Source: Pantoea sp. Nvir
GTDB taxonomy: Bacteria; Pseudomonadota; Gammaproteobacteria; Enterobacterales; Enterobacteriaceae
Direction: 5' to 3'
Assembly: GCF_009829915.1 (NCBI RefSeq)
Contig: NZ_SZZW01000008.1
Location: 4,707 to 36,706, forward strand
Length of the DNA stretch: 32,000 bases
In this document: in pieces, positions 1 to 27,177 of the stretch
Position numbering within the stretch: position 1 is the stretch's first letter
Layout: every line of letters starts with the position of its first letter
Made by a program: the position numbers and the translations under genes
The notes under the pieces: generated by a model
The model's input: the letters and a program-made list of their open reading frames with translations, nothing else
Told to the model about the DNA's origin: nothing
Database searches by the model: none

Positions 1-1080
1 ATTTATGAAATTTTCTCTTTCGATACGAATTTTGTTAGAATAAATTTGTGATATTTTATGAGGAGAATGAAAAAGAAAATATTTCTCAAGAGGACATGTA
101 GATCCGGGGATATCAGCTTCAACAGCTCCTGCTTTATTTAATTGTTCAACAAATTGTTTGATATTAATTATAAATTGGTTCTGATTAAATAATATTGGTA
201 ATGCATACCAAGCAGGATTAGCTTTTTCCGGTACTCGGACAACTTTTAGACCTTTAATTGCATCGATACCTTGTTTCATCAATAATGCAGTTTCACGTTT
301 TTCTTCCATCATCTGCTCAAAATAATCCATTTGTGGAAGAACAACCGCAGCTGCTAAAGGATGCATACGTAAATTTAAGCCTGTGCCAGTTGTAGAAAAA
401 TCTTTTAAGTCTTCGTAGCAGACCTCTTTTATAGCACGTTTATTAAAATGTCCAACAAGAACTGCTCTTTCGTACATTCTACGATGTTTCGTAGCAAAAA
501 AACCACCTTCTCCAGAAGTTAAAATTTTCTTTCCCTGAAAACTCCAAGCCGCACCATCAGCAAAACTACCTACTATTTTCCCATCCCATGTTGCACCATG
601 AGCATGCGAGCTATCTTCAAGTAAGAGTAGGTTATGTCTAGAACAAATATCCATGAGCGCGTCAAGATCACATGGAATACCCCACATATGAGTAATGACT
701 ACAGCTTTAGTTTTAGAAGTGACTAGAGATTCAACCGCTTGAGGGTCAATATTTCCGTTGTCACCACAATCCGCAAATTTTAGTTCAGCACCTAACTGAT
801 GAAGTGGTGCACAAGTAGCAAAAAACGTATAGCTAGGTACTATTACCTCATCTCCGTGAGTAATTCCTGCACCATAAAACATAGAGAATAAGGCAGTGGT
901 TCCAGAATTTACTGCAATGGCGTTTTGTACATTAAATTTTTCTTTAAATTTTCTCTCCAAACGTTCATAGATACCACTATCGTCATAGATTGATATCTCT
1001 TCCATCAGCTGAGTTTGAACACTAGAGCATATCTCATTAGTAATCTTAGGGTGAATAAACTTTGAATATTTAACATTCAT
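1..1080 (-). CDS. DegT/DnrJ/EryC1/StrS-family PLP-dependent aminotransferase (amino-sugar/aminocyclitol type); partial, 3' end runs off the left window edge
   Basis: Not in the supplied track because there is no stop inside the window. My reverse-complement translation from the ATG at 1080..1078 stays open for all 360 codons down to position 1: MNVKYSKFIHPKITNEICSS...AVNSGTTALFSMFYGAGITHGDEVIVPSYTFFATCAP...LLLEDSSHAHGATWDGKIVGSFADGAAWSFQGKKILTSGEGGFFATKHR... The NSGT-AL motif, the E-D-x-x-H/Q-A-x-G motif and SFxxxKxxxxGEGG (PLP lysine) are family hallmarks. AAGGAA lies about 9 nt upstream. The start is 14 nt after the stop of ORF 1095..2060, so the two form an operon. Confidence 0.8.
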   Translation of the reverse strand, partial: MNVKYSKFIHPKITNEICSSVQTQLMEEISIYDDSGIYERLERKFKEKFNVQNAIAVNSGTTALFSMFYGAGITHGDEVIVPSYTFFATCAPLHQLGAELKFADCGDNGNIDPQAVESLVTSKTKAVVITHMWGIPCDLDALMDICSRHNLLLLEDSSHAHGATWDGKIVGSFADGAAWSFQGKKILTSGEGGFFATKHRRMYERAVLVGHFNKRAIKEVCYEDLKDFSTTGTGLNLRMHPLAAAVVLPQMDYFEQMMEEKRETALLMKQGIDAIKGLKVVRVPEKANPAWYALPILFNQNQFIINIKQFVEQLNKAGAVEADIPGSTCPLEKYFLFHSPHKISQIYSNKIRIERENFIN

Positions 1081-1094
1081 AATAAATGTTCCTT

Positions 1095-2060
1095 TTAATC
1101 TGTTAATTTATTATATTTACTACTTTCAAAAGCTTTTTCTAGAACACGCATCAAAGAAATTGAGCTATTTAAATTTCTTTCAAACCCTGCTTCTCCCCCC
1201 TCAAAGAGAAATTCTTTATACATTCTAGAAAATGATGAAATATCTTTAACTTTTATAGCATAAATTATCTCTTGCTTTTTGTTCTTTACAACAACTTTTT
1301 TCTTATTTGCATAAAATATTTTATTTTGTCCATAAACAGTAATATCTTCATGCTTTTGCAAAGCTACACATGATATATATGCAATTATGATAACCTTGTC
1401 GCATTCGAGTTCAACAAACGCAATATCGTCTACATTATACTCTCCATTAGAAGAGTTAATTAACCTAGCGTGGTTAATTTTAATTTCCTTTCCATTAAAT
1501 AAATAATTAATAATATCTACAACATGGTGTCCCATGTCTAACCATACACCTCCTCCAGATGTAGAGAACTGACTTCTCCATCTTCCATTTGGATTCCTGC
1601 TAGGAATTGTATATCTAATATCTATCTGAAATATTTTTTCTTGCGTTTCATATATTTTATTTTTTAGAATTTCATATGCTAGTGTATATCTTTTCTGGCA
1701 TACTGTAAGTATCTTAAAATCACGATCACGTGATAAATCACTAAAAATTTTCGATTGAGATAATGTTAAAGCAAATGGTTTTTCTTTAATAACTTTCATT
1801 GGAAAGTTACTACAGTAACTAAGTACCTCATAATACATTGCATGGGGTAATGCAATTACAACCGTATCGGGTTTTATTAAACTAATTAATTCTTTATAAC
1901 TTAAGAAACTGGGTACATAATAATTAAGAAGATTCCTTACATTATTTATGTTCTCTTGTAATAAATCACATACTCCATAAATCTTTACTCCTAATGAATC
2001 TATAGCCGGTATATGTTCTTTTATGACAATATTACCACATCCGATAATAGCAAGTTTCAT
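1095..2060 (-). CDS. Gfo/Idh/MocA-family NAD(P)-dependent oxidoreductase (sugar/inositol dehydrogenase-like)
   Basis: 321-aa ORF. It has an N-terminal Rossmann motif (MKLAIIGCGNIVIKEHIPAI) and the family-typical EKP motif (VIKEKPFALT). A perfect AGGAGG sits 5 nt upstream of the ATG (plus-strand cctcct at 2066-2071). Confidence 0.8.
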   Translation of the reverse strand: MKLAIIGCGNIVIKEHIPAIDSLGVKIYGVCDLLQENINNVRNLLNYYVPSFLSYKELISLIKPDTVVIALPHAMYYEVLSYCSNFPMKVIKEKPFALTLSQSKIFSDLSRDRDFKILTVCQKRYTLAYEILKNKIYETQEKIFQIDIRYTIPSRNPNGRWRSQFSTSGGGVWLDMGHHVVDIINYLFNGKEIKINHARLINSSNGEYNVDDIAFVELECDKVIIIAYISCVALQKHEDITVYGQNKIFYANKKKVVVKNKKQEIIYAIKVKDISSFSRMYKEFLFEGGEAGFERNLNSSISLMRVLEKAFESSKYNKLTD

Positions 2061-2367
2061 ATTAACCTCCTAATTTTATGGTAAGGGAATACCCTTTTCT
2101 ATATAAATAATATATAAAAAAGTAATATAATAGATGAGATATTATTTACTTTTTACGTAAATTTAAATTCTTTCTAATAAAGAAAGAGATTTAACATCTC
2201 TATTTTTTAACATTAATTTATATAAAAATAATTTGATACTTATCATATGTTTAAAGAGGGATTTCATATAAGATCAACAATATATTAGAGTAGTAATTAT
2301 TCTATATTGCAGATCATATATAAAATAATTAAAAAATTAAAGTGCTTTTATAACTTAAAACTATCTA

Positions 2368-2400
2368 ATTAAAAATAAGAATTTAATTCTTATTTTTAAT
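2368..2400. repeat. 33-bp perfect palindrome (16-bp arms, 1-nt centre) in the divergent intergenic region; candidate operator
   Basis: attaaaaataagaatt-t-aattcttatttttaat was checked base by base. The half-site aaaaataagaatt recurs exactly at 3160-3172, about 100 bp upstream of the 3276 ATG. Confidence 0.75.
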
Positions 2401-2845
2401 CTTTCAATAAAAAGCAATGTAGTTCTATATAAATAAGATATATAAATTATATCATTTATATTATATATGATATTTTTTATTTTTATGTACAGAAACTGTA
2501 TCTTCGATATTTTTTTTCATAAAAAAAGAAAATTATTTCTTTATTTTAACAGTACTAAATATGATCTAGCTAAATAAAATAATTTAAAATATTTTAATAA
2601 ATTACTATTCTAAATTTATTAGTGTACTCTCCCTTTTTAAAAGGGATTCACAAATCTAGAGGATTTTTTAAAATTAAGATTGTATAATAAAATGTTATCA
2701 AAAACCTTTATTTCTGATATACCACACTTTTTATAAAAGTAAATTACATTAAATCACTGTTATTAACTATCAAAATGATTTCTTATTTTTACTTAGTTTT
2801 GTATTGAATCTTATTCAAGTTTTTTATTGTATGTTAATTCTTGAT

Positions 2846-2889
2846 AGATAATAGACTATCTTCTTGAATAAGAAGATAGTCTATTATCT
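2846..2889. repeat. Perfect 20-bp inverted repeat with 4-nt loop (stem-loop or protein-binding palindrome)
   Basis: Left arm agataatagactatcttctt is 2846-2865, loop gaat, right arm aagaagatagtctattatct is 2870-2889. There is no flanking T-run on either strand, so it is not a classic terminator. Confidence 0.8.
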
Positions 2890-3275
2890 CACTATATAGT
2901 AATCTTATTGGGTTCACAAGTTATTTATTATTATTTTTTGACAAGCCTCAAAATTGCTTTATTAAAAAATCAGTATTAATAATATTTTGTAAAAAATAAA
3001 AACATATCAATAATTTGATAAGAAAATTTTACAGTATAAAAACAATTATTTATTTAATATAAAAGTTATTATAAAAAAGAAAAATCAGTGATATGTAATT
3101 AATTCTTACATATCTATTTTTAGAGATAGATTATATCATATGATATTCTCTCTTACTTTAAAAATAAGAATTAAATAATATACTACATATCGTAGTTTGA
3201 TAGTATTTTCAATATTCAGGAAAGTATATTTGTATTATACCATCTATAAATCTTTTAGTATTTAGAGGAAAAAAT

Positions 3276-4031
3276 ATGCGATTAATGATTAAATCTAGTT
3301 TAGCACTTTATGAAATTAAACGACGTTTTACTTATCTTAATGAGTTTTATTATAATGAAAATAATTTTTTTCGGAAATCTTCTAATTTTTTACAATTTGT
3401 CCGAGATGAAGGATTATTCTCTATACTAATTCATGAATTATTAGCTAATGAAAATTATTTAACTGAAATTGCATCTAATTCATATAAGCACGTGAATCAT
3501 TTTTCTAAAATTGTTTTAATTAACGACACAAATAAAAATAACTGCCGCCTAACGCTACATATTTGGAAACCCCCATTTACTAAAAATGAAATTAATCAAG
3601 AGCTTATTCATGATCACCGTTTCAGTTTTTCTTCTTATGTTCTTTGTGGGACGCAGATACATGAAATTTTTTATGAATCTAAGAAAAGACCAATTTCTAA
3701 AGTTCGATTTCAAAAATATAAATATCTTCCGTCCATTACAGGGAATATCCATGACTGTTTTTTTGAGAAAGATGTCTACCTGAATAAAATTGCAGAAAAG
3801 ACCGTTAGTCGTGGCAATATATATACTATGCGCAGTGACGTTATTCATCGTATAGTGTTTCCTACTGGTAATGAACCTATCATTTCATTTTTAGTAAGGG
3901 GAAGACAAAAAAAACATTATACTTACACATATAATACATTTTATCCTCGTAAACATACGTTATTTAACGTTCCAATGTATACAACGAACGAATTACGTGA
4001 GTTACTGAAATATACTTTAGAAAAAATCTGA
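3276..4031 (+). CDS. Hypothetical protein, cupin-fold 3-His metalloenzyme-like (cysteine-dioxygenase-like HxH...H pattern)
   Basis: 251-aa ORF with GAGGA 7 nt upstream. The segment RLTLHIWKPP...ELIHDHRFSFSSYVLCGTQIHEIFYE resembles the CDO/COG5553 double-stranded beta-helix motif (xIHDHxxSxxxxxxLxGxL). A distal His lies in DVIHRIVFP. The functional call is weak. Confidence 0.45.
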   Translation: MRLMIKSSLALYEIKRRFTYLNEFYYNENNFFRKSSNFLQFVRDEGLFSILIHELLANENYLTEIASNSYKHVNHFSKIVLINDTNKNNCRLTLHIWKPPFTKNEINQELIHDHRFSFSSYVLCGTQIHEIFYESKKRPISKVRFQKYKYLPSITGNIHDCFFEKDVYLNKIAEKTVSRGNIYTMRSDVIHRIVFPTGNEPIISFLVRGRQKKHYTYTYNTFYPRKHTLFNVPMYTTNELRELLKYTLEKI

Positions 4032-4043
4032 GAATATAATATT

Positions 4044-4871
4044 ATGAGTCTTATTGTTCATAAAGAAGGTTCAGTGCATGAACGGCATGGTGCATATAAT
4101 ATTTTTCGTCAACTAGCTGTGAAGATTTTTGCTGATCATATTGATGATATTCAGTATTATAAGTGGCTTGACGAAATTCCTCATAAAGTGAGTAATCTTT
4201 TCCCTTCTGTAGAGTTTAAAGAACACGATTGGGTAAGAGTTAATCCACCTTTGAATACAGCCGTATATTACGACACTCCTAAATATAATATACTTCCTAC
4301 CGGTTCCTTATTGAGAACATCTTGTAGTAAACTTACCCATGCTTTTTGTGCTTTTAAGATGCCTGAGGATACAACAGGTAACCGCTTGGATAGGCGTCAT
4401 GTATTTGTAGGTAAAGAAAAAGCTATTATCCAGAATGATCCTGGTAGTAAGGCCGCTGTCAGTATTGTTAAAAAACTTATTACCCGTAGCGACGTTGATC
4501 AACCAGGTACTTTTCTTAAGCTAACTACTGGGATTTCACCAAAAAAATTGATTCCCTCCATGATGTTAAAGGGTTATCGTACAACATTTTATGTTCTTAT
4601 AGATGGCTATGATATCCTACGATGTTCTCTCGATCGTTCCTCGGTATGTGATATTCGTTTTAGTAATTATACAGAAGATCTAAGTACTTGGAAAAATTTC
4701 CGAGAAATTGAGTTATCGCTTTATCCAAGAATTGCAGACACCATTAAAGGCGATCCCCGAGTTATTCAAATTATTAAATTCTTACGGGATTCTCTTATTA
4801 AAAGGTTTAATACAAATGTTATTTATAATATAAAGTATCAGCGTGGTATGACATTGCTTGGTAAATATTGA
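4044..4871 (+). CDS. Hypothetical protein; C-terminal half faintly CYTH/triphosphate-tunnel-like
   Basis: 275-aa ORF starting 13 nt after the previous stop, so likely in the same operon. The segment TFLKLTTGISPKK...KGYRTTFYVLIDGYDILRCSLDRS...FREIELSLYP resembles the CYTH strand pattern K-x-R-x-x-[FY]...lD...f-x-EIE. No N-terminal ExExK motif is seen, so function is unassigned. Confidence 0.5.
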   Translation: MSLIVHKEGSVHERHGAYNIFRQLAVKIFADHIDDIQYYKWLDEIPHKVSNLFPSVEFKEHDWVRVNPPLNTAVYYDTPKYNILPTGSLLRTSCSKLTHAFCAFKMPEDTTGNRLDRRHVFVGKEKAIIQNDPGSKAAVSIVKKLITRSDVDQPGTFLKLTTGISPKKLIPSMMLKGYRTTFYVLIDGYDILRCSLDRSSVCDIRFSNYTEDLSTWKNFREIELSLYPRIADTIKGDPRVIQIIKFLRDSLIKRFNTNVIYNIKYQRGMTLLGKY

Positions 4872-5078
4872 AATTTTCTTTCAAAAAATGCCATGCTTTC
4901 CGATAGATTATAAGTATCTATTCAAATCTATAAGAGATAAAAAATTAATTGCGCTTATTTTTAGTCTTGGGCGAAATAGTTTTCTATTTTTTTGTTGATC
5001 TTTATTTTTAATATTTTAAAAAAATTAATTATAAATTATTGCTTCAGTATTATCTTTTAGATAAATTAGGATTCATGA

Positions 5079-5717
5079 ATGTCTGATACTGCTCTTATGT
5101 TATTTAAACCAGAGTTTAATCTTATAGAACGCAGAAGATTTTATCCGCTTATCCGGGACTATCTTACTCTTTTTAACCTCTCTGTTGAGAAAGAGTGTGA
5201 AATATGTACTAGAGATGAAAAAGAGCTTCTTTTCGATTGTGTTTATTCTAGACTTCTTAAAAATGCTCGTAGTAAGTATGAGGATAATTGTATAGGAGGA
5301 TACACTTATTTAGCATTAAAAGCTCAAATTACTGATGAGCAGCTTTTCCGCGAATGGGTTTCTCCACAGAATATAGCTCTGAGTCTCAAAGAAGATTGCT
5401 ATTATCTACAAAAGGATGGACAGAAAGTTATAAATCCTTTCTGTCCATATCAGAGAAGGTTGTTCACTGAAAGTACCACGTCGGTGCATCTTTTTCTTCT
5501 CAGCAAAAATAGTTCTTTATCATGGTCGGAAATTAAACCACTTTTTTAGGGGGATCCTATACAGTTTGGTGAGAACCACAGTGGGATACGTTCACATCTT
5601 AGTCAATGTAGCTGGTATACTTCTTCTACTAATGGCCTCCATTTATCAGCATCGTGTGCTGATGCTTATAAAGAAACTCATGAGGTGATGACATTTTTTA
5701 CTAATAGAGGTTTGTAG
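5079..5717 (+). pseudogene. Nucleoside-diphosphate-kinase-like gene interrupted by one in-frame TAG (5547-5549)
   Basis: The track ORF 5079..5549 (156 aa) begins ALMLFKPEF, compared with the NDK motif TFSIIKPNA. The same frame continues after the TAG with GDPIQFGENHSGIRSHL...TNGLHLSASCADAYKETHEVMTFFTNRGL*, stopping at 5715-5717. This part aligns to the NDK C-terminus (LLGATNP...GTLRADY...[20 protein letters not shown]). The NxxH catalytic-His motif therefore lies downstream of the stop. AGGA lies upstream of the 5079 ATG. Confidence 0.55.
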
Positions 5718-5725
5718 TTCGTAGT

Positions 5726-6280
5726 ATGAAAAAAGAACTTATTCTTATCCGACACGGCCATTCAGAGTGGCAGGCTGATACTACATCTGATGATAAAAAC
5801 AGTCATCTAACAGATAGAGGAATAAGGGAAGCGAGAAAATTGTATAATATGCTTACTGAGTATACGGACTTTACTAATTTTTATTTAGTGAGTAGTCCTT
5901 TACATCGCGCTGTAGAAACTAGTCGCCTAGCTTTACCTCCCTCTCTTTTTTCGTCAATCTTTTTTGATAAGAGTTTTTGTGAAGCATCTTTTCACGTACG
6001 ATCTGAACTAATTTTATCAAAGGATTTTTATCCTGAATTAAAAGGCTCACTAAGCCAAGAATATCTAAATTTTAAGTCAGCTATTAAAACAGCATTGGCC
6101 CGTGTGCTCGCTGTGCATGATCGTGTCATGATTTTTACTCATGGTGGAGTTATCAAGACTATTCTACGTCTTCACTGTGGCTCTGATGCATTCTGTACAC
6201 AGATTGACAATTGCTCAGTTACGCACTTTATAAAAAATAAATATGTATGGTTACTTCGACGAGTTAATTATAGATACTAG
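5726..6280 (+). CDS. Histidine phosphatase superfamily (branch 1, phosphoglycerate-mutase-like) protein
   Basis: 184-aa ORF. It carries the RHG motif (LILIRHGHSEW), LTDRGIREA, SSPLHRAVETS and a distal THGG, which together form the canonical catalytic core pattern. It starts 8 nt after the NDK-like frame ends. Confidence 0.8.
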   Translation: MKKELILIRHGHSEWQADTTSDDKNSHLTDRGIREARKLYNMLTEYTDFTNFYLVSSPLHRAVETSRLALPPSLFSSIFFDKSFCEASFHVRSELILSKDFYPELKGSLSQEYLNFKSAIKTALARVLAVHDRVMIFTHGGVIKTILRLHCGSDAFCTQIDNCSVTHFIKNKYVWLLRRVNYRY

Positions 6281-7102
6281 GTTAGATTGCAGTCGTGTCC
6301 ATAATATTAAATCTTTATTTATAAATTGTATTATTTAGTATTTATCTGAAATTTTATGCCGAATACTGCATTTAGTTATTTATAAAAAACTTTAGAAAAC
6401 TATATATTTACTTATAAAATTAATATGACTCCCTTCATAAGGGAATCATATATACTATATGACTTTTTTTAAAAAAAGTAAAAGAAGTTACTTCTTTCTG
6501 TAGTAAAGAAAAGTAATTTTATGACATACTTAGTATATATATGAAAAAATAATTATAATTATGTTGTAAAGTTATATAACTTTACTATTATGATCTGTAG
6601 TTATGATTAACTAGAATTAATTTCATATAAAATTCATAATTTTTATGTCCCATTAAATTTAATTTGGAAAATATTTCCTATTAAAAATTAATTTAAATTA
6701 AAGTATTTTTTATTAGTTTGAAAAACTATACTTTTTATATTAAAAAGTGGTTTTGTTAGATGAGATTAATGATGGAAAATATGGAAATATATAGGTCTTA
6801 ATGTATTTCCCATTGATTATGAACTTCTTTAAAAAAGAAAATAAAGGGTTATTGATATGAAAATATCTGTAACCGTGCATATATACTGAAAATTAATGAT
6901 TTAATCAGTAGTTCAAAGAGAGATTTAAATAAATTAGTTTAAATTGTTCATGTATTTATTTACATTTTTTTAAAAATTTTCTTTCCTTTTCTAGAGTGAT
7001 TCACTATGCCACGAATTTTCTTAAATAGTCTTCTAGAGAAGCAACCTCTACTTAAGAGTACTAGTAGTGTTTGGATTTTATTTTTTCACTCTAGTACTAT
7101 TG

Positions 7103-7111
7103 TTATCCACA
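7103..7111 (+). promoter_or_regulatory. Consensus DnaA box TTATCCACA (origin 1)
   Basis: Exact 9/9 match, lying at the outer edge of the origin-like region upstream of repA-1. Confidence 0.75.
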
Positions 7112-7123
7112 GTTTTACAGGTT

Positions 7124-7172
7124 AGATCCAATAATTAGACCAATAAGATCCTATATAGTACCAAATAGATCC
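7124..7172. repeat. Three phased AGATCC (GATC/Dam) repeats of origin 1
   Basis: AGATCC occurs at 7124, 7146 and 7167, with spacing of 22 and 21 bp. The repeats lie between the DnaA box and the iterons, as in P1-type oriR. Confidence 0.65.
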
Positions 7173-7219
7173 CCGTAAGCTGTAGGCCGCACTGTACTTG
7201 GCTTAAAGGCTTATCCTGA

Positions 7220-7324
7220 TGTGTGCTGGCGGGATAAAAATGTGTGCTGGCGGGATAAAAATGTGTGCTGGCGGGATAAAAATGTGTGCTGGCGGGATAA
7301 AAATGTGTGCTGGCGGGATAAAAC
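7220..7324 (+). repeat. Five directly abutting 21-bp iterons (tgtgtgctggcgggataaaaa) of replicon 1
   Basis: Units are at 7220, 7241, 7262, 7283 and 7304. Four are identical and the fifth ends ...aaaac. The array ends 50 bp upstream of the repA-1 ATG. Confidence 0.9.
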
Positions 7325-7374
7325 TACTTTTAGTGCATTCTTTGAATTCTTTTTTAAAGAAATGAGATAACTCA

Positions 7375-8241
7375 ATGATAGATAAGTTTTTTATAGCTGA
7401 TGCACTCTACGGTGATATGGTCAGTAAAGAAAAACAGCTCACAGTTAATTCGAACAATACTGTTCAGCCAGTTGCACTCATGCGACTTGGGGTCTTTGTT
7501 CCAAAGCCGACTAAATCACAGGGTGAGAACAACATTGTTGATGCATCTGAGTTATTTTCTCAGCTTGAACTTGCAAAAGCTGAGGGGTATGACAATATCA
7601 ATATCTCTGGTCCGCGCCTGGACATGGACTGTGATTTTAAAGTTTGGATAGGCATAATCTACGCGTTTAGTAAAGGTGGTATGAATACAAATAAGATTGA
7701 ACTCAAGTTCACAAAATTTGCAAAAGGTTGTGGCTTTTCAGCAAAGCGTATAGATGGTCGTCTACGTAGTTCTATCCATGATTCTTTGGGTAAGCTGAGG
7801 AATAAGTCTATCTCATTTAAACGTGGCGCGGATGTACGAGGAAGCTATCAAACTGGTTTATTAAAAACTGGTTACTTCGATGCTGACAGAGATATCATTC
7901 AACTTGAAGTAGATGAAAAGCTTTGGGAGCTGTTTCAGCTAGACTATCGAGTGTTACTGCAACAGTACGCTATTAAAGCTCTTCCGAAGAAAGAGGCTGC
8001 ACAGGCTATATACACGTTTATCGAGAGCTTACCAGCTAATCCAGTACCTGTGGGTTTCCAACGTTTACGTGAACGCCTATCGTTAACTAGTACTGTAAGC
8101 GAACAGAACCGTACGATAAAAAAGGCGTTGGATCAACTTCAACATATTGGATATCTGAAATTTTCTTTATTTCGCAAAGAGCGGGAGAATTTTTTAATTA
8201 TTCATAAAAGAAACCCAAAATTAAAACAATTGGATTTATGA
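7375..8241 (+). CDS. repA: Plasmid replication initiator RepA, P1 RepA / RepFIB family (replicon 1)
   Basis: 288-aa [33 protein letters not shown] and EAAQAIYTFIESLPANPVP match the remembered RepFIB RepA sequence ([19 protein letters not shown]..., [32 protein letters not shown]). The gene is flanked by iterons. Confidence 0.9.
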   Translation: MIDKFFIADALYGDMVSKEKQLTVNSNNTVQPVALMRLGVFVPKPTKSQGENNIVDASELFSQLELAKAEGYDNINISGPRLDMDCDFKVWIGIIYAFSKGGMNTNKIELKFTKFAKGCGFSAKRIDGRLRSSIHDSLGKLRNKSISFKRGADVRGSYQTGLLKTGYFDADRDIIQLEVDEKLWELFQLDYRVLLQQYAIKALPKKEAAQAIYTFIESLPANPVPVGFQRLRERLSLTSTVSEQNRTIKKALDQLQHIGYLKFSLFRKERENFLIIHKRNPKLKQLDL

Positions 8242-8244
8242 AAG

Positions 8245-8260
8245 TGTGTGCTGACGGGAT
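8245..8260 (+). repeat. Downstream iteron copy of replicon 1 (15/16 match, direct orientation)
   Basis: tgtgtgctgAcgggat lies immediately after the repA-1 stop. Confidence 0.7.
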
Positions 8261-8404
8261 GTACAGTTGCTTTGTTGAATACAAAGAAGTGTGACTACAT
8301 AACAAAACTCTCCTTATAAACACTGTTACATGTGCAATCAGAGGTAGTTAAGACATTAACAACCCACTTTTATACTTATTCATTTTGCTTAGAAATTAAT
8401 ATAC

Positions 8405-8420
8405 ATCCCGCCAGCACACA
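8405..8420 (-). repeat. Downstream iteron copy of replicon 1 (16/16 core, inverted orientation)
   Basis: atcccgccagcacaca is the reverse complement of tgtgtgctggcgggat. Confidence 0.75.
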
Positions 8421-8945
8421 TTTAAGATTCTCGTCAAACTATGACCCTAAGTTACAACTATTTATTTGATAAGAGTATTTTTTCCATTGTAAGATCGCAC
8501 AGTTGAGAAAATACAGATTTGTATAGTAAGGTGTAGAGACCACTAAACGGAGGCATATTATAGAGCTGATACTAAATACTCTACAGCAAAAGCACAGTAC
8601 TACTAAGTAGTGCAAAGGATATTATAATTTCAAATTATCCTTATATTTTGTGATATACTGACTAAAGTATCTTATAATCCCCTGTTTTAAACAGCTAAAC
8701 ACGTAAAACTTAAGTTTATAGTTACAATAATGCCTTATTTACCACGTTAACACCTTCAGTCAATGTTATATGATAGATAGGATTGTCATCAAAATTGATC
8801 GCGAGTGTGTATTTTGAAAAAAATTAAAAACCAGTTACAGTATACCCTGGTGCCATAACTAAAATATGACGGTACACCGTTAATAATTTAACTTATATGA
8901 TATAGGTTAAATTCGAAAAGATAAATGCGACAATATGGTGAAACC

Positions 8946-9572
8946 ATGTTCATCAGAGCTTATTTAAGGGCGTCAACAGAAGATCAGTTTGCCGATCGGG
9001 CAAAAAAAGTCTTAGAACAATTTGTTCAAGAACGAGGGCATAAAATAGCTAGTTACTATAGTGAAAATGTGAGCGGTACAACGCTTGACCGTCCGGAATT
9101 GGGGCGGTTACTAATGGATAGCCATCACAACGATATTTTACTAGTAGAACAAATAGACCGACTAACCCGTCTAAGCAACAGTGACTGGATAACAATGAAA
9201 AAACAGATTGAGCAACATAAGCTCCGCATTGTCAGTCTGGATGTTCCTACCTCATGGCAGGCACTGTCGGATAAAGAACCCTCACAAACTGATCCAATAA
9301 CACACGCCGTTATTACAGCTATCAATAACATGCTAATTGACTTAATGGCAGCGATGTCACATAAAGATTGGTTAAGCCGACGTCAAAGGCAAAAACAGGG
9401 GATAGAGCGGGCACATATGCTAGGTAAATACCGAGGAAGACGTGCCGACCACGATCGGCACCAGAAAGTCTTGTACTACCGACAGGTTAAAAAACTAAGT
9501 ATACGGGAAACTGCAGACGCCACAGGATACAGTACCTCCCAAGTATGCTGGTCTGGTATCCGTTCCACTTAA
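8946..9572 (+). CDS. Serine recombinase (resolvase/invertase family)
   Basis: The track ORF starts at 8925, but the family-typical start is MFIRAYLRASTEDQ (catalytic-Ser motif Y-x-R-x-S-x-x-x-Q) at the 8946 ATG. Also present are DRPELGRLL, LLVEQIDRLTR and a C-terminal HTH-like LSIRETADATGYSTSQV. Confidence 0.85.
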   Translation: MFIRAYLRASTEDQFADRAKKVLEQFVQERGHKIASYYSENVSGTTLDRPELGRLLMDSHHNDILLVEQIDRLTRLSNSDWITMKKQIEQHKLRIVSLDVPTSWQALSDKEPSQTDPITHAVITAINNMLIDLMAAMSHKDWLSRRQRQKQGIERAHMLGKYRGRRADHDRHQKVLYYRQVKKLSIRETADATGYSTSQVCWSGIRST

Positions 9573-9740: not shown

Positions 9741-11012
9741 ATGGAAAAGCTATCCTACGCGTTTGAAAACAGCACATCTGCTTGGTCTACCTATCTCCAG
9801 CAAATCGACCGTGTTGCACCCTATCTTGGCGAACTGGGGTGCTGGATAGATACACTTCGCCACCCAAAACGCGCTCTGATCGTTGATATTCCTTTGCAAA
9901 TGGATAACGGCACTATCCGCCATTTTGAAGGTTACCGCGTTCAGCATAATCTTTCGCGCGGACCTGGGAAAGGCGGTGTTCGCTATCATCCCAATGTAGA
10001 TCTTAACGAAGTAATGGCTCTTTCCGCGTGGATGACTATTAAGTGCGCTGCAGTCAACCTGCCTTACGGAGGCGCCAAAGGAGGCATTCGATGTGATCCT
10101 TTTGCACTATCGGAAAGCGAACTAGAGCGCTTAACTCGCCGTTACACCAGTGAGATCGGCATCATAATTGGACCACAAAAGGATATTCCTGCACCTGATG
10201 TTGGTACCAACAGTAAGGTAATGGCATGGATGATGGACACCTACTCTATGAACAGTGGTACGACAGTGACCGGTGTGGTAACAGGTAAACCTATTCACCT
10301 CGGCGGCTCGCTGGGAAGAGAGAAAGCAACTGGTCGCGGCGTGTTTATTACTGGCCGTGAAATGGCGCGGCGTGCGAGCATTCCTATTGAAGGTGCTCGT
10401 GTAGCGGTACAGGGATTCGGCAACGTCGGTAGCGAGGCAGCGCGTCTGTTCAGCGAAGCCGGCGCCTCTGTAGTAGCAGTTCAAGATCACAGCGCCACCC
10501 TTGCTAATCTGAACGGTATTGATATGGCTGCGCTGACACGCTGGCAACAACAGTATAAACAGATCCGCGATTTTCCAGACGCGCAAGAGATTGATGGAGA
10601 GGCATTCTGGACTACTCAGATGGATATCTTGATACCGGCGGCAATTGAAGGGCAAATCACACGTGCGCGAGCCGAAACACTAAGCTGTAAACTTTTACTA
10701 GAAGGTGCAAACGGCCCTACTTATCCTGAAGCAGACGACATGCTGGCCGCGCGCGATATTATCGTAGTACCAGATGTCGTCTGTAACGCGGGAGGTGTTA
10801 CAGTAAGTTACTTCGAATGGGTACAGGACATGGCAAGTTTTTTTTGGAGCGAGGAAGAGATTAATGCACGAATGGATAAGATCATGACTGACGCCATAGT
10901 ACATGTCTGGAACAAATCTAAAGAGAAGAGTTGTTCGCTGCGTACAGCAGCCTATATCGTTGCGTGTGAGCGTATTTTAATAGCACGCAAAGAACGCGGT
11001 ATTTATCCTTGA
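9741..11012 (+). CDS. Glutamate dehydrogenase (Glu/Leu/Phe/Val dehydrogenase family, about 420-aa class)
   Basis: 423-aa ORF with [21 protein letters not shown] (catalytic Lys region) and the dinucleotide fold [11 protein letters not shown]. Confidence 0.9.
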
Positions 11013-11066
11013 TAAAAAAGCTGAATACAGTAAGCCCGATTTTTAGAAATCGCACATGACTACCGT

Positions 11067-11125
11067 CAGTAGCGCAGTGCTAGTAGCCACCCTACATTTA
11101 GGTGGCTACTAGCACTGCGCTACTG
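11067..11125. repeat. 25-bp perfect inverted repeat with 9-nt loop between convergent genes (probable bidirectional terminator or REP-like element)
   Basis: cagtagcgcagtgctagtagccacc (11067-11091), loop ctacattta, ggtggctactagcactgcgctactg (11101-11125). No T-tract follows on either strand. Confidence 0.6.
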
Positions 11126-11180
11126 CGACTACGTAATCTCTGGATATACCACTGACAAAGCCATTAGGCATAACATCACG

Positions 11181-14100
11181 TTATTCCGTTGTCTTGCGAT
11201 TACTCAGGGAAGCTTTAACAAACTCAGCAGCGCGTTTTCCTGCTAAGAATGCATGGTCCGAATTATAATACTCCCACTCGCTGTAACGTCCTGAAAGATA
11301 AATACCCTGAGTTGCCAACCAACTGCGAATCAAATGTACATTTGCCTGACGATAGTGGTCATATACCACATAAGCATAAGGCATATCTACCTCATTTGCA
11401 GTAATAATAACATCTTCAGTACGAAGAATACCAACACGAATACAGTCGTCAATACAGCGCTGAATCAATGCGTCACCTTCACAAGGTAAAGGTTGCTCAG
11501 TGCGGTAGGTGATCTCACAGATGAGGCCAAAGCATCCTGCTGGATTACATTCCGGGCTGGCATTCCCTTGTAAAAAAATGCGGTGAAACAGAGTATCTCC
11601 TGGATAGTAAATCCAGTGTTTATCGCTTAGAGCTTCGCGCCCAATACCGAGATTAACACAGCGCACTGAAACGTGATTTAGTAATAACGCAGCTTTCTGA
11701 ATAGCTTCTGGCACGCAATTGCCCATCAGTTGCACTAGTTCAGGTAGCGGTAGTGTGCTGATCATTTGCTCATAGCGATAATGACGACCATCCTTAGTAA
11801 TAACATCACGATTTTTTAGCTGGATCTCAACGATCTCAGATTGAGTATCTAGCGCGCATTTAAGATAAGGTAGGAAGCCGTTCATTAATGCCTGAAAACC
11901 GCCACGTTTGGGATAACCAAAACGTGCATTAGGTCCGACAGGATTGTCCAGCGGCATCAGCGCACCAGAAATAATTTGTTCTAAATTAGGCATTGGAACT
12001 CGCTCACCGAGCCAAGATGTCTCTATATTAGCAAGCGACATCTTCCACAGTTTACGATTATAAGGAATTGCAAAATGACGCGCAATGCCTCTTCCCCAAG
12101 TACGGAAGATAAATTTTTCAAAATCTTCACCGGTGTTTTCTGCCTCCCCTGCCGATTTTGTCGCTTCAGCGTTAAACATACCATCTGAGCAACACACCGC
12201 CTGTCCTGTTGTATTCAACAGTGTGGTATTCCGAGTGCCATGTATACCGTAACAAGCTTCTACTGCTCCCAATATACACTCACTAATTACCTCTGCCGGT
12301 AACCCATATAATGATGACTGAAAAGGGTAACGAGTAAAGACATTATGGCTATAAACCCAAGCTTCACGCGTTTGCCAATGCAGGTTATCACCAAGTAGTT
12401 TTTCATAGAGTTGTAAAACATAAGGATCTTTTGAAAACATGATATGACCGGCATAATCAAAGGTAAATCCTTTTTCTTGAATTGAACGACACCAACCGCC
12501 CGGCGTTTCATTTTTTTCTAGTAATACCGCGCCTTCACCGTAGTGGTAACCTATGCTTAAGCCGGTTGGTCCTGCACCTAGAATCAGACATTCAACAGGA
12601 CGTGATGGCACCATATGTATCGGCTTATTAGTATCTAGACTCTTATTATAGGAAATAGTTTGAACAACTTTTTTATTTCGTAGACCAGCAATATGCTCTT
12701 GCATCCGCTCAACGGTACTATCCCAAGAAGTTTTAGCAATAATTATTGCCATTTTTGCTGCCTGTTCTCTACGAGCTTCTTCGCTGAGATCTAAAACATT
12801 TTCGCAAGCATTTATAAAATCTTGCGTAGTGTCAACAATATTGACCACATCATTAAAATGGCGCACTATATCCGGGACCGCCGTGCTAACAATTGGCAGT
12901 TGCGCAGCCATATACTCCAGTACTTTAGTAGGGCTAATAAAACGAGTTGAGGTATTTAGCACAAAAGGTATCAGGCAGATATCCCATCCTACTAAGAAAT
13001 GGGGTAAGGCCTCGTAGGGCTGTTGACCGAACCAATGAAGATTAGTTCGCTGGGGCAGCGTGTTGGGATCTATTTTTACCACTGGACCGACCATCACTAT
13101 CTGCCATTCAGGACGGGCATCAGCCAGCGCTCCAATCAGTGCAATATCCATACGTTCGTCAATTACACCGTAATAGCCTAATCGTGGGCTCGGAAGAGTC
13201 TGCTGTAGCGGATGACCGTTACTACGGTCAAGCGCCTGCTCAAAATGAGCGGCATCGACACTACTAGGAAAACAATACACGTTTTTGTGTCGATGCTTTT
13301 TCGCTTCATATAGGCTGGTACCACCGGTAAACACAATATCAGCACAGTTAAGTAATTCTGATTCGCGTTGTTGAAGCTGTTGAGGTGCCATATGGAAAGC
13401 AGAAAGTTCATCCATGCAGTCATAAATAATGGCTCTGGGATTAAAGCAAGTTAACAACGGCAGCGCCATTGGAGTATAGAACCAAATTAACGGCTGTTCA
13501 TCTTTCTCCAGCAGTAAAGTTAATAAGGGTTGTAATACTATTATTTGGCTATCATGGAAACCTGGAGCGTCAACATCTGTATGTGGTTCAATAACGGTTA
13601 CGTTCGGTGCGGCTACGTAAGTATGTAGCCCTGCTTCACCGGGTTGATAAACTGGCTCCTCAATAAAGAGAACGCGGTAGTATTGAGCGAGGCGAGATAA
13701 TAAATGCTGTGGACGTTGAAAAACGAAACCCCAGCGCAGATGACTAAATACCACTAAAACAGAATGTTTCATAAAGGACTCCTGTGGCCTGATAGACGAT
13801 GATAGAAAAAATTGAAATCGGTGCAGTGTTCTTTGGGATTGCCGCAAAGCTGCAGCTGTGGGTTGATGTAACAGACGTGTAAAATCAGAGGCAATGTCCC
13901 AGAGTCCGCTATGCGGCCAATATTGGGGATCTTCCCAAAGAGGACTGTCAAGAATAGGATAAATACATATCCCTTGGATATCGCAGCCATTAAGCTGTGC
14001 CTGAGCTACTTGTGCAGCAATATGGTTTATCCAAGCTGGTCGGCCACTTCCGACATGGCTGGTTTCTGAGAGCAGAATCGGGCGTTGATAACGTTGTGAT

Positions 14101-14969: not shown

Positions 14970-15490
14970 ACATTCAACGATATTTCTGTCATAGCAAAAG
15001 AATCGAATAGAGCCGAAAACGATATCTTTACTAATTATTTCTGTATGCGAAAATTTAAAGTTTGTGTGTAATTGAAGAAGTTTGAATTCAAGAAAAACTT
15101 TATCCGGTAAGCAGATAAAAAAGAATCTATAAATTACTAGTTTCAGTGAGCGAACACTTTTAATTGGAGTATAACTCTCCTTACTCTTCCCACAAGAAAT
15201 TCAAGAAAAAGAAAATTGAATCATTCTATAAAAAGCAATTTGTACTCACGGTATACTTACGAGCCCTAGTATCTATATGTTTATATAGTTCAATATCCTA
15301 AACGGCTAGAGCTATTCCATTAGAAATAGCAGAATACATGCTAATAAAACTACCTTATCATGTAGAGAAAGCACATCCTATCTGTACTGAGTGGGGTGAG
15401 ATGTTCTAAACCAAAAGCTGTGTAAAATTTTTTATCTTTTATATATCTGGTAATTGAAGCTTGTGCAACTAGTATAAAGAGCACATTTGT

Positions 15491-18431: not shown

Positions 18432-18452
18432 GCGCACACTATTTGTGTGCGC
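18432..18452 (-). terminator. Rho-independent terminator of fumC
   Basis: The hairpin is gcgcacac-tattt-gtgtgcgc. On the minus strand it is followed by TCGTCTTTACTTTATTT. It lies about 80 nt downstream of the fumC stop. Confidence 0.6.
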
Positions 18453-27163: not shown

Positions 27164-27177
27164 GACGTGTGATACCT

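What the first reader, a model, noticed from the sequence alone, without database searches (positions are those of the whole stretch)
1..7100. Extremely AT-rich accessory island abutting a plasmid origin: likely foreign gene cluster of unknown function
Seen in sequence: composition changes sharply. My hand counts give 7/60 G+C at 2101-2160 and 12/60 in coding 3421-3480, against 34/60 at 10381-10440. All six genes left of about 7100 are AT-rich, have strong AT-context SD sites and are separated by 1.1-1.2 kb AT spacers full of palindromes. None belongs to the core-metabolism set on the right of the window.

Established: such compositional discontinuity next to a replication or recombination module is typical of horizontally acquired DNA.

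Inference: the island (Gfo/Idh/MocA oxidoreductase, DegT aminotransferase, cupin, unknown, NDK-like, histidine phosphatase) is a co-acquired functional unit. It is possibly a small-molecule (amino-sugar, aminocyclitol or nucleoside-type) pathway. It continues beyond the left edge of the window.
Basis: partly seen in the sequence, partly recalled or inferred. Interest (0 to 1): 0.8.

Follow-up and report, generated by a model that had tools for sequence, protein, structure and literature searches.

The report
Two nucleoside-antibiotic-type cassettes on symbiont plasmid
The AT-rich block is real. It is old plasmid cargo shared by stink-bug gut symbionts, made of an operon matching a known aminonucleoside-antibiotic pathway and a three-enzyme set that resembles, without a direct sequence comparison, the genes needed for nucleocidin fluorination.

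Summary
The window comes from the reduced-genome Pantoea gut symbiont of the stink bug Nezara viridula. The composition step is real. Bases 1-7100 are 28.6% G+C and the rest is 41.2%. Island genes have GC3 of 0.19-0.30, against 0.34-0.44 for genes to the right.

The island is not a recent import and not one unit. It holds two cassettes with separate distributions.

- **Cassette A (window <1-2060, minus strand; continues left).** It matches adgB-adgC-adgD-adgE of Photorhabdus (pur10/pur4/pur7/pur3-type). In Photorhabdus this operon makes 3'-amino-3'-deoxyguanosine. The same operon sits on plasmids or small contigs of at least five other stink-bug symbionts.
- **Cassette B (3276-6280, plus strand).** It encodes a three-histidine cupin, a triphosphate tunnel metalloenzyme, an NDK-like pseudogene with an in-frame TAG, and a histidine phosphatase. 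Cupin, tunnel enzyme and phosphatase resemble the three genes required for 4'-fluorination in nucleocidin biosynthesis, by fold, residue spacing and neighbouring genes. I could not compare the sequences directly.

Both cassettes are already 10-17 points below their neighbours in G+C-rich relatives. That inherited offset explains the step here.

One long spacer holds an eroded regulator gene. The other holds the plasmid origin.

Cassette B plus the origin is syntenic with plasmid pBMSBPS4 of Ca. Pantoea carbekii. Cassette A is syntenic with pBMSBPS2.

The parts
1..1080 (-). adgC/pur4-like DegT-family aminotransferase. Residues 1-360 of 399 are in the window; the last 39 lie left of base 1.
   Evidence: NCBIfam DegT-family hits. 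74% identical to the Ca. P. carbekii pBMSBPS2 gene. 72% identical to the Photorhabdus kayaii adg locus. The full 399-aa gene is seen in second-strain contig L010.
1095..2060 (-). adgB/pur10-like Gfo/Idh/MocA oxidoreductase, the predicted NAD-dependent NTP 3'-dehydrogenase.
   Evidence: Three Pfam GFO domains above cutoff. 65-69% identical to stink-bug symbiont orthologues and 53% to P. kayaii. N-terminus MKLAIIGCG against MKLVIIGCG encoded by the published adgB cloning primer.
2061..3275 (.). 1215-bp spacer at 17.6% G+C between the two divergent cassettes. It holds a remnant of a YidZ-like LysR regulator at about 2169-2309 (minus strand) and perfect hairpins at 2368-2400 and 2846-2889.
   Evidence: tblastn of the Plautia type-B symbiont LysR, residues 255-301, gives E = 0.004. 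The match is collinear with, and directly upstream of, the oxidoreductase, as in L013-L016. Inverted repeats. No promoter enrichment.
3276..4031 (+). 251-aa three-histidine cupin, thiol-dioxygenase-like, resembling nucleocidin Orf(-3).
   Evidence: AF2 pLDDT 88. Foldseek matches mercaptosuccinate, cysteine and 3-mercaptopropionate dioxygenases, E down to 2.8e-6. Invariant Y70, W97, H112, H114 and H191 have the same 27/15/2 spacing as Tyr73, Trp100, His115 and His117 of S. calvus Orf(-3).
4044..4871 (+). 275-aa triphosphate tunnel metalloenzyme (CYTH-like) fold, resembling nucleocidin Orf2.
   Evidence: AF2 pLDDT 95, pTM 0.91. Foldseek matches YgiF 5a60 at E 1.8e-10, class IV adenylate cyclases, VTC and thiamine triphosphatase. 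43 invariant residues, rich in Arg, Lys, Asp and Glu.
5079..5720 (+). NDK-like gene interrupted by an in-frame TAG at 5547-5549. Probably a recent pseudogene.
   Evidence: The 215-aa P. alfalfae homologue aligns straight through the stop at 57.6% identity. The TAG replaces a near-invariant Gln. The same TAG is in a second strain. Only the NGLHLSAS loop matches NDK (hhalign, 21 columns, probability 12%).
5726..6280 (+). 184-aa histidine phosphatase, branch 1, resembling nucleocidin Orf3.
   Evidence: Pfam His_Phos_1, E 4.5e-20. RHG motif at residues 9-11. Adjacent to the tunnel-enzyme gene in every proteobacterial relative examined.
6281..7374 (.). 1094-bp spacer that includes the plasmid origin: an AT-rich stretch, a DnaA box at 7103-7111 and five 21-bp iterons at 7220-7319.
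   Evidence: Direct repeats. Perfect TTATCCACA. The iteron region aligns at 72% with the region upstream of repB in pBMSBPS4.
7375..8241 (+). Rep3/RepB-family (RepFIB-like) replication initiator, with further iteron copies at 8245-8260 and 8405-8420.
   Evidence: Pfam Rep3_N at 26 bits against a cutoff of 22.4. 48% identical to pBMSBPS4 RepB. Iteron scan.

Best explanation
The region is the cargo of an old small iteron (RepFIB-like) plasmid of stink-bug Pantoea symbionts. Here that plasmid is joined to remnants of the large Pantoea plasmid. The cargo is two independent, ancestrally low-G+C, mobile cassettes, and both appear to act on purine nucleotides.

**Cassette A (adgB-C-D-E type).**
- By homology to the Photorhabdus ADG operon and the puromycin genes, the pathway starts with oxidation of GTP (or ATP) at C3'.
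- The Nudix enzyme then removes pyrophosphate.
- The aminotransferase adds an amino group at the 3' position.
- The IMPase-family phosphatase removes the last phosphate.
- The product would be a 3'-amino-3'-deoxy purine nucleoside, most likely 3'-amino-3'-deoxyguanosine. This is a prodrug that is toxic to enterobacteria able to phosphorylate it.
- The gene identities are shown. The product, and a role in excluding competing gut or egg-surface bacteria, are inferred.

**Cassette B.**
- It encodes a three-histidine cupin, a triphosphate tunnel metalloenzyme and a histidine phosphatase.
- This enzyme combination resembles the trio genetically required for C4' fluorination of adenosine in nucleocidin producers.
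- I infer that it modifies the ribose of a nucleoside triphosphate. The tunnel enzyme would handle the triphosphate, the iron cupin would do the oxidative step, and the phosphatase would release the nucleoside.

**The AT-richness** is an inherited deficit of 10-17 G+C points plus the genome-wide drift toward AT. The long spacers are an eroded regulator gene and the origin.
For: **Source organism.** The 275-aa protein is 100% identical to a Pantoea sp. Nvir protein. Published genome figures for this symbiont are 1.425 Mb, 40.6% G+C and 68.9% coding density.

**Cassette A**
- The same four genes in the same order occur in pBMSBPS2, in second-strain contig L010, and in Pantoea sp. Eser, Cedecea sp., Ca. 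P. persica and the Plautia type-B symbiont. They also occur in Plautia symbiont plasmid pPstS2 and in P. kayaii.
- The published adgB-E cloning primers hit the P. kayaii locus at both ends.
- adgB-E expressed in E. coli yields ADG, and that BGC was noted to have low G+C (PMC9239236).
- Pur10, Pur4, Pur7 and Pur3 roles are taken from PMC11641026.

**Cassette B**
- Fold assignments.
- The trio is adjacent in Paramixta, Photorhabdus, P. alfalfae, Hahella, Pseudaestuariivita, a Rickettsia endosymbiont and a metagenome contig.
- The S. calvus knockouts and the Tyr73, Trp100, His115, His117 and His200 active-site set.
- The S. calvus neighbours are Nudix, oxidoreductase, cation:proton antiporter, APH and MFS genes. 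Similar genes recur near the trio elsewhere.

**Composition**
- Cassette B is 38-45% G+C against 55-58% for its flanks in P. alfalfae.
- Cassette A is 33-42% in Pantoea sp. Eser, whose genome is 55.2%. It is 38.8% against 51% in pPstS2 and 36.8% against 44.8% in P. kayaii.

**Constraint**
- dN/dS between symbionts is 0.11-0.29 for the core genes.
- Two SoNv strains differ by 87 indel columns, all of them intergenic.

**Synteny with pBMSBPS4**.
Against: - No chemistry or expression data exist for this organism.
- The exporter adgA and the LysR regulator are lost here. The exporter is fragmentary in the other symbiont loci.
- Identity to the Photorhabdus enzymes is only 51-72%, so the substrate (GTP or ATP) is not fixed.
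- I could not obtain the S. calvus sequences. The afdb50 library was unavailable, and the candidate representatives are unnamed metagenome proteins. The link to the nucleocidin trio therefore rests on fold, residue spacing and gene neighbourhood, not on a direct alignment.
- The third-histidine spacing differs: 77 residues here against 83 in S. calvus.
- The trio's biochemistry is unknown even in Streptomyces.
- Cassette B shows decay. The NDK-like gene has a stop codon here. In P. carbekii the tunnel-enzyme gene has a frameshift and the NDK-like gene is absent.
- Synonymous sites are saturated (dS above 1.2), so the dN/dS values are rough.
Confidence: 0.6

Rival explanations
1. The whole island is one co-acquired pathway. 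Cassettes A and B would work together on a single, doubly modified nucleoside.
For: - The cassettes are adjacent and divergently transcribed in this symbiont.
- Both are kept in Ca. P. carbekii.
- In S. calvus a Nudix gene and an oxidoreductase gene lie between the cupin and tunnel-enzyme genes.
- Both cassettes have relatives in Photorhabdus.
Against: - A and B are unlinked in all 15 other loci checked by tblastn, within the 6-10 kb of flank fetched on each side of each match.
- They sit on different plasmids, with different rep genes, in P. carbekii.
- adgB-E alone is enough to make ADG.
- The screen found three genes essential for fluorination, and the S. calvus Nudix and oxidoreductase genes were not among them.
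Confidence: 0.12
2. The island is decaying passenger DNA with no present function. It survives only because it sits next to an origin on a multicopy plasmid.
For: - A stop codon in the NDK-like gene is fixed in two strains.
- The tunnel-enzyme gene is frameshifted and the NDK-like gene is lost in P. carbekii.
- The regulator and exporter are eroded.
- Coding density is low and spacers are long, at 17-26% G+C.
Against: - Eight genes remain full length in a genome that has lost most of its ancestral content.
- dN/dS is 0.11-0.29.
- No indel falls in any gene between the two strains, while 87 indel columns fall in the spacers.
- Catalytic motifs are intact.
- The same cassettes are kept on different replicons (RepB, IncFII RepA, TrfA) in different symbionts.
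Confidence: 0.15
3. Cassette B is not biosynthetic. It would be a nucleotide-detoxifying, self-resistance or anti-phage nucleotide-depletion module, hydrolysing toxic or phage-needed nucleoside triphosphates.
For: - Tunnel enzymes usually hydrolyse triphosphates.
- Relatives lie near Abi_2, integrase, IS, YafO and RadC genes.
- A NucT/DrmC-like PLD nuclease gene is nearby.
- Nucleoside kinase, thymidylate synthase and cytidine deaminase genes are neighbours.
Against: - No PADLOC model matches.
- In alphaproteobacteria the trio sits in operons with regulators, exporters and further phosphoesterases, which looks like a metabolic cluster.
- In S. calvus the trio is needed to make a product, not for survival.
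Confidence: 0.2
4. Cassette A makes an amino sugar or aminocyclitol, either kanosamine by NtdC/A/B or RifL/K/M logic, or scyllo-inosamine by StrI/StsC/StrO logic.
For: - The oxidoreductase scores equally against UDP-GlcNAc 3-dehydrogenase and myo-inositol 2-dehydrogenase models, E about 1e-15.
- Among the aminotransferase's best solved relatives is 2-deoxy-scyllo-inosose aminotransferase, E 5e-38.
- The phosphatase belongs to the IMPase family.
Against: - All these scores are far below the family cutoffs.
- Neither pathway uses a Nudix enzyme.
- The four-gene set and its order match adgBCDE, with 51-72% identity to a locus tied to the experimentally verified operon by primer matches.
Confidence: 0.06
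5. The Nudix and IMPase genes are housekeeping MutT and SuhB, serving stress tolerance and DNA repair. This is the published annotation of the P. carbekii orthologues.
For: - Kenyon et al. 2015 annotate them this way.
- There are weak NCBIfam MutT hits, E about 1e-11, below cutoff.
Against: - The MutT hit scores 43 bits against a cutoff of 148.
- The phosphatase is closer to HisN (E 1e-49) than to SuhB (E 4.5e-13).
- Both genes are always embedded in the four-gene adg-type operon.
Confidence: 0.04

Closest known systems
adgA-E operon of Photorhabdus luminescens (3'-amino-3'-deoxyguanosine; Shahsavari et al. 2022, PMC9239236) and the pur10/pur4/pur7/pur3 core of the puromycin, A201A and cystocin clusters
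   Same: - The same four enzyme families occur in the same order: oxidoreductase, DegT aminotransferase, Nudix, IMPase-family phosphatase.
- Identity to the P. kayaii adg locus is 51-72%.
- The G+C content is low relative to the host.
- The cassette is small and self-contained.
   Different: - The exporter adgA and the upstream LysR regulator are lost here.
- The cassette is plasmid-borne in obligate insect gut symbionts rather than chromosomal in a nematode symbiont.
- The product and the nucleotide substrate are untested.
- There are no peptidyl or methylation tailoring genes as in puromycin.
orf(-3)/orf2/orf3 of the nucleocidin cluster of Streptomyces calvus and S. virens (Wojnowska et al. 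2023, PMC10946740)
   Same: - The same three folds occur: thiol-dioxygenase-like three-histidine cupin, triphosphate tunnel metalloenzyme and histidine phosphatase.
- The Tyr/Trp/His/His spacing in the cupin is the same.
- The tunnel-enzyme and phosphatase genes are neighbours.
- Similar accessory neighbours (Nudix, antiporter, MFS, APH) occur in family members.
   Different: - There are no sulfamylation, glucosylation or other nuc genes.
- An NDK-like gene is inserted between the tunnel-enzyme and phosphatase genes.
- The hosts are proteobacteria with no known fluorometabolites.
- Direct sequence comparison with the Streptomyces proteins could not be done.
[quoted passage not shown] 2015, PMC4350177)
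   Same: - They carry orthologous genes in the same order.
- pBMSBPS4 reads PLD, cupin, tunnel enzyme, phosphatase, roughly 1 kb of origin, RepB.
- pBMSBPS2 reads oxidoreductase, aminotransferase, Nudix, phosphatase.
   Different: - In this symbiont both cargos lie on one contig, together with gdhA and thi genes that P. carbekii keeps on two further plasmids.
- P. carbekii has lost the NDK-like gene and has a frameshift in the tunnel-enzyme gene.
- pBMSBPS2 uses an IncFII RepA.
Iteron-type RepFIB/Rep3 plasmid replicons
   Same: A Rep3-family initiator, five 21-bp iterons upstream and two more copies downstream, a DnaA box and an AT-rich stretch.
   Different: A second rep gene of the same family, 43% identical, lies on the same contig. 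No partition genes were seen next to this origin.

Membership tests
adg/pur-type 3'-aminonucleoside operon | Pur10/AdgB-like Gfo/Idh/MocA NAD-dependent NTP dehydrogenase | tested here: met
   GFO domains above cutoff. 53% identical to the P. kayaii adg locus. The N-terminus matches the primer-encoded AdgB N-terminus at 8 of 9 residues. Substrate not tested.
adg/pur-type 3'-aminonucleoside operon | Pur4/AdgC-like DegT aminotransferase immediately downstream | tested here: met
   DegT-family hits. 72% identical to the P. kayaii locus. The gene starts 14 bp after the oxidoreductase gene ends.
adg/pur-type 3'-aminonucleoside operon | Pur7/AdgD-like Nudix and Pur3/AdgE-like IMPase-family monophosphatase, completing the four-gene order | tested here: met
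   Both lie outside the window but are present in the 98.9%-identical second-strain contig L010 at 3982-4413 and 3129-3938. They are 53% and 51% identical to P. kayaii. Family hits.
adg/pur-type 3'-aminonucleoside operon | The locus used as reference is the experimentally verified BGC | tested here: met
   The published adgB-E cloning primers match L018 at 5448-5472 (3 mismatches) and 8292-8318 (1 mismatch), with none expected by chance. The species differs: P. kayaii rather than P. luminescens.
adg/pur-type 3'-aminonucleoside operon | Dedicated MFS exporter (AdgA/Pur8) | tested here: not met
   No MFS remnant was found in the window or in L010. Only fragments are present in L013, L015, L016 and L024.
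adg/pur-type 3'-aminonucleoside operon | Production of a 3'-amino-3'-deoxy nucleoside | not testable with these tools
   Needs heterologous expression and LC-MS.
Nucleocidin fluorination trio (orf(-3), orf2, orf3) | Thiol-dioxygenase-like cupin with three His plus Tyr and Trp in the active site | tested here: met
   Fold. Invariant Y70, W97, H112, H114 and H191 against Tyr73, Trp100, His115, His117 and His200. The 27/15/2 spacing is identical. The last interval is 77 against 83 residues, and a family member with 83 exists (P0138).
Nucleocidin fluorination trio (orf(-3), orf2, orf3) | Triphosphate-tunnel-metalloenzyme-fold protein next to a histidine phosphatase | tested here: met
   The two genes are adjacent in L005, L007, L021 and L022, and separated by the NDK-like gene in Erwiniaceae.
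Nucleocidin fluorination trio (orf(-3), orf2, orf3) | Significant sequence similarity to the S. calvus proteins WP_233452298, WP_142191278 and WP_233452302 | not tested
   The sequences could not be obtained. afdb50 was unavailable and cluster look-ups gave unnamed metagenome proteins. An actinobacterial tunnel-enzyme homologue from Kribbella, 40% identical, lies next to APH and Nudix genes.
Nucleocidin fluorination trio (orf(-3), orf2, orf3) | Embedded in a nucleocidin-type cluster (sulfamylation, glucosylation, PNP/APRT genes) and required for C-F bond formation | tested here: not met
   No such genes occur in the window or in L010. Fluorination is not testable here.
Nucleoside diphosphate kinase | NDK fold with the catalytic histidine loop NxxHGSDS | tested here: inconclusive
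   No Pfam or PDB sequence hit. One source names the Photorhabdus homologue 'NDK-like domain'.
Iteron (RepFIB/Rep3) plasmid replicon | Rep3-family initiator with tandem iterons, a DnaA box and an AT-rich region | tested here: met
Recently acquired genomic island | Composition differs from the host AND the block is absent from close relatives | tested here: not met
   The composition differs. However, the cassettes are shared with P. carbekii, the Arvelius symbiont and the Plautia and Euschistus symbionts. The acquisition predates this lineage.

The most novel reading that the evidence does not exclude
The cupin, tunnel enzyme and phosphatase trio is a widespread, uncharacterised enzyme system that functionalises C4' of nucleotides. 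It would be the same chemistry that installs fluorine in nucleocidin. Stink-bug symbionts would keep it, alongside an ADG-type operon, to make defensive nucleoside analogues that protect the egg smear and midgut crypts from competing enterobacteria. The proteobacterial versions would then offer simple, tractable models for solving the unknown nucleocidin fluorination mechanism.
Probability: 0.12. Interest if true: 0.9.

Novelty: new member of a known kind. Interest (0 to 1): 0.62.

Why it matters
- **Retained antibiotic-type operon.** Obligate, vertically transmitted stink-bug symbionts have lost most of their genes. Even so, several lineages keep an operon matching a proven nucleoside-prodrug antibiotic pathway, on plasmids with different replication genes. 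One of these is the most deeply sequenced of the four plasmids in Ca. P. carbekii.
- **Possible defensive role.** This points to competitor exclusion during egg-surface transmission, in addition to the accepted nutritional role. It also corrects the published MutT/SuhB reading of two of these genes.
- **Link to fluorination.** The second cassette resembles a trio whose only known phenotype is nucleocidin fluorination, and ties it to a broad proteobacterial family. That suggests a more general nucleotide chemistry and gives simpler systems in which to study it.
- **Limit.** I found no paper in the searchable library that makes either link.

Tried and rejected
**Searches that found nothing**
- Rfam at gathering thresholds and tRNA scans of the window.
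- PADLOC defence models for the island proteins and their neighbours.
- Pfam and NCBIfam for the 251-aa, 275-aa and NDK-like proteins. Only structure prediction was informative for these.
- Sequence and profile searches of the NDK-like family against PDB.
- Remnants of downstream genes of the full cassette B (371-aa gene, membrane protein, dNK, VOC) in the two spacers. Only the LysR remnant appeared.
- Alignment of the spacers between symbionts gave only low-complexity AT matches, apart from the iteron region.

**Ideas considered and dropped**
- Kanosamine and scyllo-inosamine pathways for cassette A. I held these until the adg/pur match explained the Nudix gene as well.
- Phytate or inositol-phosphate scavenging for the many phosphatases. 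I saw no obvious N-terminal signal sequence on the histidine phosphatase when reading it, the phosphatase is branch 1, and the nucleoside links are stronger.

**Analyses that were uninformative**
- dN/dS between the two SoNv strains. There are only 10 substitutions.
- Finding the S. calvus cupin by its residue-number fingerprint among 149 representatives. There was no exact match, and the candidate clusters are unnamed.
- The afdb50 fold library was not available.

**Not resolved**
- Whether the 13.2-kb second-strain contig is a separate circular plasmid. It has no terminal overlap, and it ends at window position 8722, just before the resolvase gene.

Full report
**Source and observation**

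The 275-aa protein encoded at 4044-4871 is 100% identical to a protein of 'Pantoea sp. Nvir'. This is the gut symbiont of the stink bug Nezara viridula. Its published genome is 1.425 Mb, 40.6% G+C and 68.9% coding (PMC8032781).

The composition step is real. Bases 1-7100 are 28.6% G+C and the rest of the window is 41.2%. Island genes have GC3 of 0.19-0.30, against 0.34-0.44 for the 14 genes to the right.

The two long spacers are 2061-3275 (17.6% G+C) and 6281-7374 (25.8% G+C). The right side of the window carries gdhA, thiO/G/F, an aspartase-like lyase, a molybdopterin oxidoreductase, a lipid A acyltransferase and a methionine aminopeptidase. These show 72-77% nucleotide identity to large Pantoea plasmids.

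**Anatomy of the island**

On the minus strand lie a DegT aminotransferase (<1-1080) and a Gfo/Idh/MocA oxidoreductase (1095-2060).

On the plus strand lie four genes:
- a 251-aa protein (3276-4031);
- a 275-aa protein (4044-4871);
- an NDK-like reading frame (5079-5720) cut by an in-frame TAG at 5547-5549;
- a histidine phosphatase (5726-6280).

The origin follows. It has a perfect DnaA box (7103-7111) and five 21-bp iterons (7220-7319). Next comes a Rep3/RepB-family gene (7375-8241), and two more iteron copies lie downstream of it.

A contig from a second strain (L010) is 98.9% identical over window 1-8722. It shows what lies left of the window: the end of the aminotransferase gene, a Nudix gene, an IMPase-family phosphatase gene and a PLD-type nuclease gene.

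**Cassette A is an adg/pur-type aminonucleoside operon**

The order oxidoreductase, aminotransferase, Nudix, phosphatase recurs in many places:
- the 6.3-kb plasmid pBMSBPS2 of Ca. Pantoea carbekii;
- Pantoea sp. Eser, an uncultured Cedecea, Ca. P. persica, and an 8.5-kb TrfA-replicon contig of the Plautia stali type-B symbiont;
- plasmid pPstS2 of another Plautia symbiont;
- Photorhabdus kayaii.

Identities to the SoNv proteins are 57-80% among the symbionts and 51-72% for Photorhabdus.

Shahsavari et al. (PMC9239236) showed that adgB-E of P. luminescens are homologues of pur10, pur4, pur7 and pur3. Expressed in E. coli, these genes yield 3'-amino-3'-deoxyguanosine. That compound is a prodrug which is phosphorylated to a GTP mimic. 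The authors also noted the low G+C of the cluster.

Their cloning primers match the P. kayaii locus at the start of the oxidoreductase gene and at the end of the phosphatase gene. This ties my reference locus to the verified operon. The enzyme roles come from the puromycin literature as summarised in PMC11641026.

In less reduced relatives, an MFS gene and a YidZ-like LysR gene precede the operon. In SoNv only a 47-residue LysR remnant survives, at 2169-2309. It has the expected position and orientation (E = 0.004). So at least part of the first spacer is an eroded gene.

The published reading of the P. carbekii orthologues as MutT and SuhB is probably wrong. The phosphatase is closer to HisN than to SuhB, and the MutT score is far below its cutoff.

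**Cassette B resembles the nucleocidin trio**

Structure predictions were confident. The 275-aa protein (pLDDT 95) has a triphosphate tunnel metalloenzyme fold; its best match is YgiF at E 1.8e-10. The 251-aa protein (pLDDT 88) is a cupin nearest to thiol dioxygenases. It has invariant Y70, W97, H112, H114 and H191.

Cupin, tunnel enzyme and histidine phosphatase are adjacent in these loci:
- a Paramixta plasmid;
- Photorhabdus hindustanensis;
- a Pantoea alfalfae plasmid;
- Hahella;
- Pseudaestuariivita;
- a Rickettsia endosymbiont;
- a metagenome contig.

The cupin family is large, with 1768 representatives at E <= 1e-3.

Wojnowska et al. (PMC10946740) found that three genes at the edge of the nucleocidin cluster are each essential for 4'-fluorination:
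- a cysteine-dioxygenase-like protein with His115, His117, His200, Tyr73 and Trp100;
- a tunnel-enzyme-fold protein;
- a histidine phosphatase.

The biochemistry of these three is unknown. The Tyr-Trp-His-His spacing (27, 15, 2) is identical to that in my family. The S. calvus neighbours are Nudix, oxidoreductase, cation:proton antiporter, APH and MFS genes, and similar genes recur around the trio elsewhere.

I could not obtain the Streptomyces sequences. This link is therefore strong circumstantial evidence, not a direct alignment.

The NDK-like gene is specific to Erwiniaceae and Photorhabdus. It resembles NDK only in the histidine loop. In SoNv a near-invariant Gln codon has become TAG, in both strains.

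**Why the island is AT-rich**

In G+C-rich relatives both cassettes are already low in G+C:
- Cassette B is 38-45% against 55-58% for flanking genes in P. alfalfae.
- Cassette A is 33-42% in Pantoea sp. Eser, whose genome is 55.2%.
- Cassette A is 38.8% against 51% in pPstS2, and 36.8% against 44.8% in P. kayaii.

The offset of about 12-13 points in SoNv is therefore inherited. Genome-wide AT drift has lowered everything together. The foreign origin is real but old.

**History**

Cassette B, the roughly 1-kb origin region and the RepB gene are collinear with pBMSBPS4 of P. carbekii, and the iteron region still aligns. Cassette A corresponds to pBMSBPS2.

The Arvelius symbiont carries cassette B, with an intact NDK-like gene, on a 6.9-kb contig with an IncFII RepA. 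The same cargo thus rides on different replicons.

A and B are unlinked in all 15 other loci checked by tblastn, within the 6-10 kb of flank fetched on each side of each match. This argues against a single unit.

**Are the genes maintained?**

dN/dS between symbionts is 0.11-0.29 for the core genes and 0.43 for the NDK-like gene. Synonymous sites are saturated, so these values are rough.

The two SoNv strains differ by 10 substitutions and 87 indel columns, and every indel is intergenic.

Against this, the exporter and regulator are gone. P. carbekii has a frameshift in the tunnel-enzyme gene and lacks the NDK-like gene. I read this as purifying selection on the enzymatic cores, with ongoing erosion of the accessories.

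**Mechanism, with steps marked**

- Shown: the gene families, their order, orthology to the adg locus, folds, composition history and synteny.
- Inferred for cassette A: it converts GTP or ATP to a 3'-amino-3'-deoxy nucleoside, by C3' oxidation, pyrophosphate removal, transamination and dephosphorylation.
- Inferred for cassette B: it modifies the ribose of a nucleoside triphosphate. The tunnel enzyme would bind the triphosphate, the iron cupin would oxidise, and the phosphatase would release the product.
- Speculative: that the products defend the egg smear or the midgut crypts against competing enterobacteria.

**Verdict**

The island is best filed as new members of known kinds: an adg-type operon and a nucleocidin-type trio. 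The host context is unexpected and apparently unreported, since my literature searches found no link.

Noticed in passing
window 5547-5549: An in-frame TAG replaces a near-invariant Gln codon in the NDK-like gene. Every invariant residue downstream of the stop is still present. The same stop occurs in a second strain assembly.
   Followed up: yes
window 7375-8241 and 30811-31752: Two Rep3/RepB-family replication genes, 43% identical, lie on one contig. Only the first has the TGTGTGCTGGCGGGAT iterons. This suggests a cointegrate of two replicons.
   Followed up: partly
window 8242-9572; L010 end: A serine resolvase gene (8925-9572) sits just right of the island and rep unit. The second-strain contig L010 stops at window position 8722, so the island may exist as a separate plasmid of about 13 kb in that strain, or the assembly may simply break there.
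   Followed up: partly
window 9741-29149: gdhA and thiO/G/F lie on the same contig as the island. In Ca. P. carbekii these genes are split over plasmids pBMSBPS1 and pBMSBPS3, so one SoNv contig holds content spread over four P. carbekii plasmids.
   Followed up: partly
window 7211-7375 (minus strand): A 54-aa ORF with repeated SRQHTFL is an artefact of translating the 21-bp iterons.
   Followed up: yes
window 11067-11125: A 60-nt near-perfect palindrome (93%) lies between the convergent gdhA and 1262-aa genes. It is possibly a bidirectional terminator.
   Followed up: no
window 2846-2889 and 2368-2400: Perfect AT-rich hairpins, with 20-nt and 16-nt arms, lie in the spacer between the two cassettes. 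Their function is unknown.
   Followed up: no
L013 2928-3365; L016 45-623; L024 16946-18094; L015 about 3118-3529: The MFS exporter gene upstream of the adg-type operon is fragmentary in every stink-bug symbiont locus examined. The LysR regulator gene is intact there.
   Followed up: partly
L018 5448-7014: The Photorhabdus kayaii adg locus appears to carry an internal deletion joining adgB (residues 1-189) to adgC (from residue 63).
   Followed up: no
L008 3049-3875: The tunnel-enzyme gene of Ca. P. carbekii pBMSBPS4 has a single frameshift near codon 125 and is annotated as two hypothetical proteins. The NDK-like gene is absent from that plasmid.
   Followed up: partly
L010 925-1467; L008 6318-6836: A NucT/DrmC-like PLD-family nuclease gene accompanies the island in both SoNv and P. 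carbekii. Its role is unknown.
   Followed up: no
window 11181-14969: A 1262-aa protein combines glycosyltransferase-like and flavin amine-oxidase-like domains. This is an unusual fusion and I did not examine it further.
   Followed up: no
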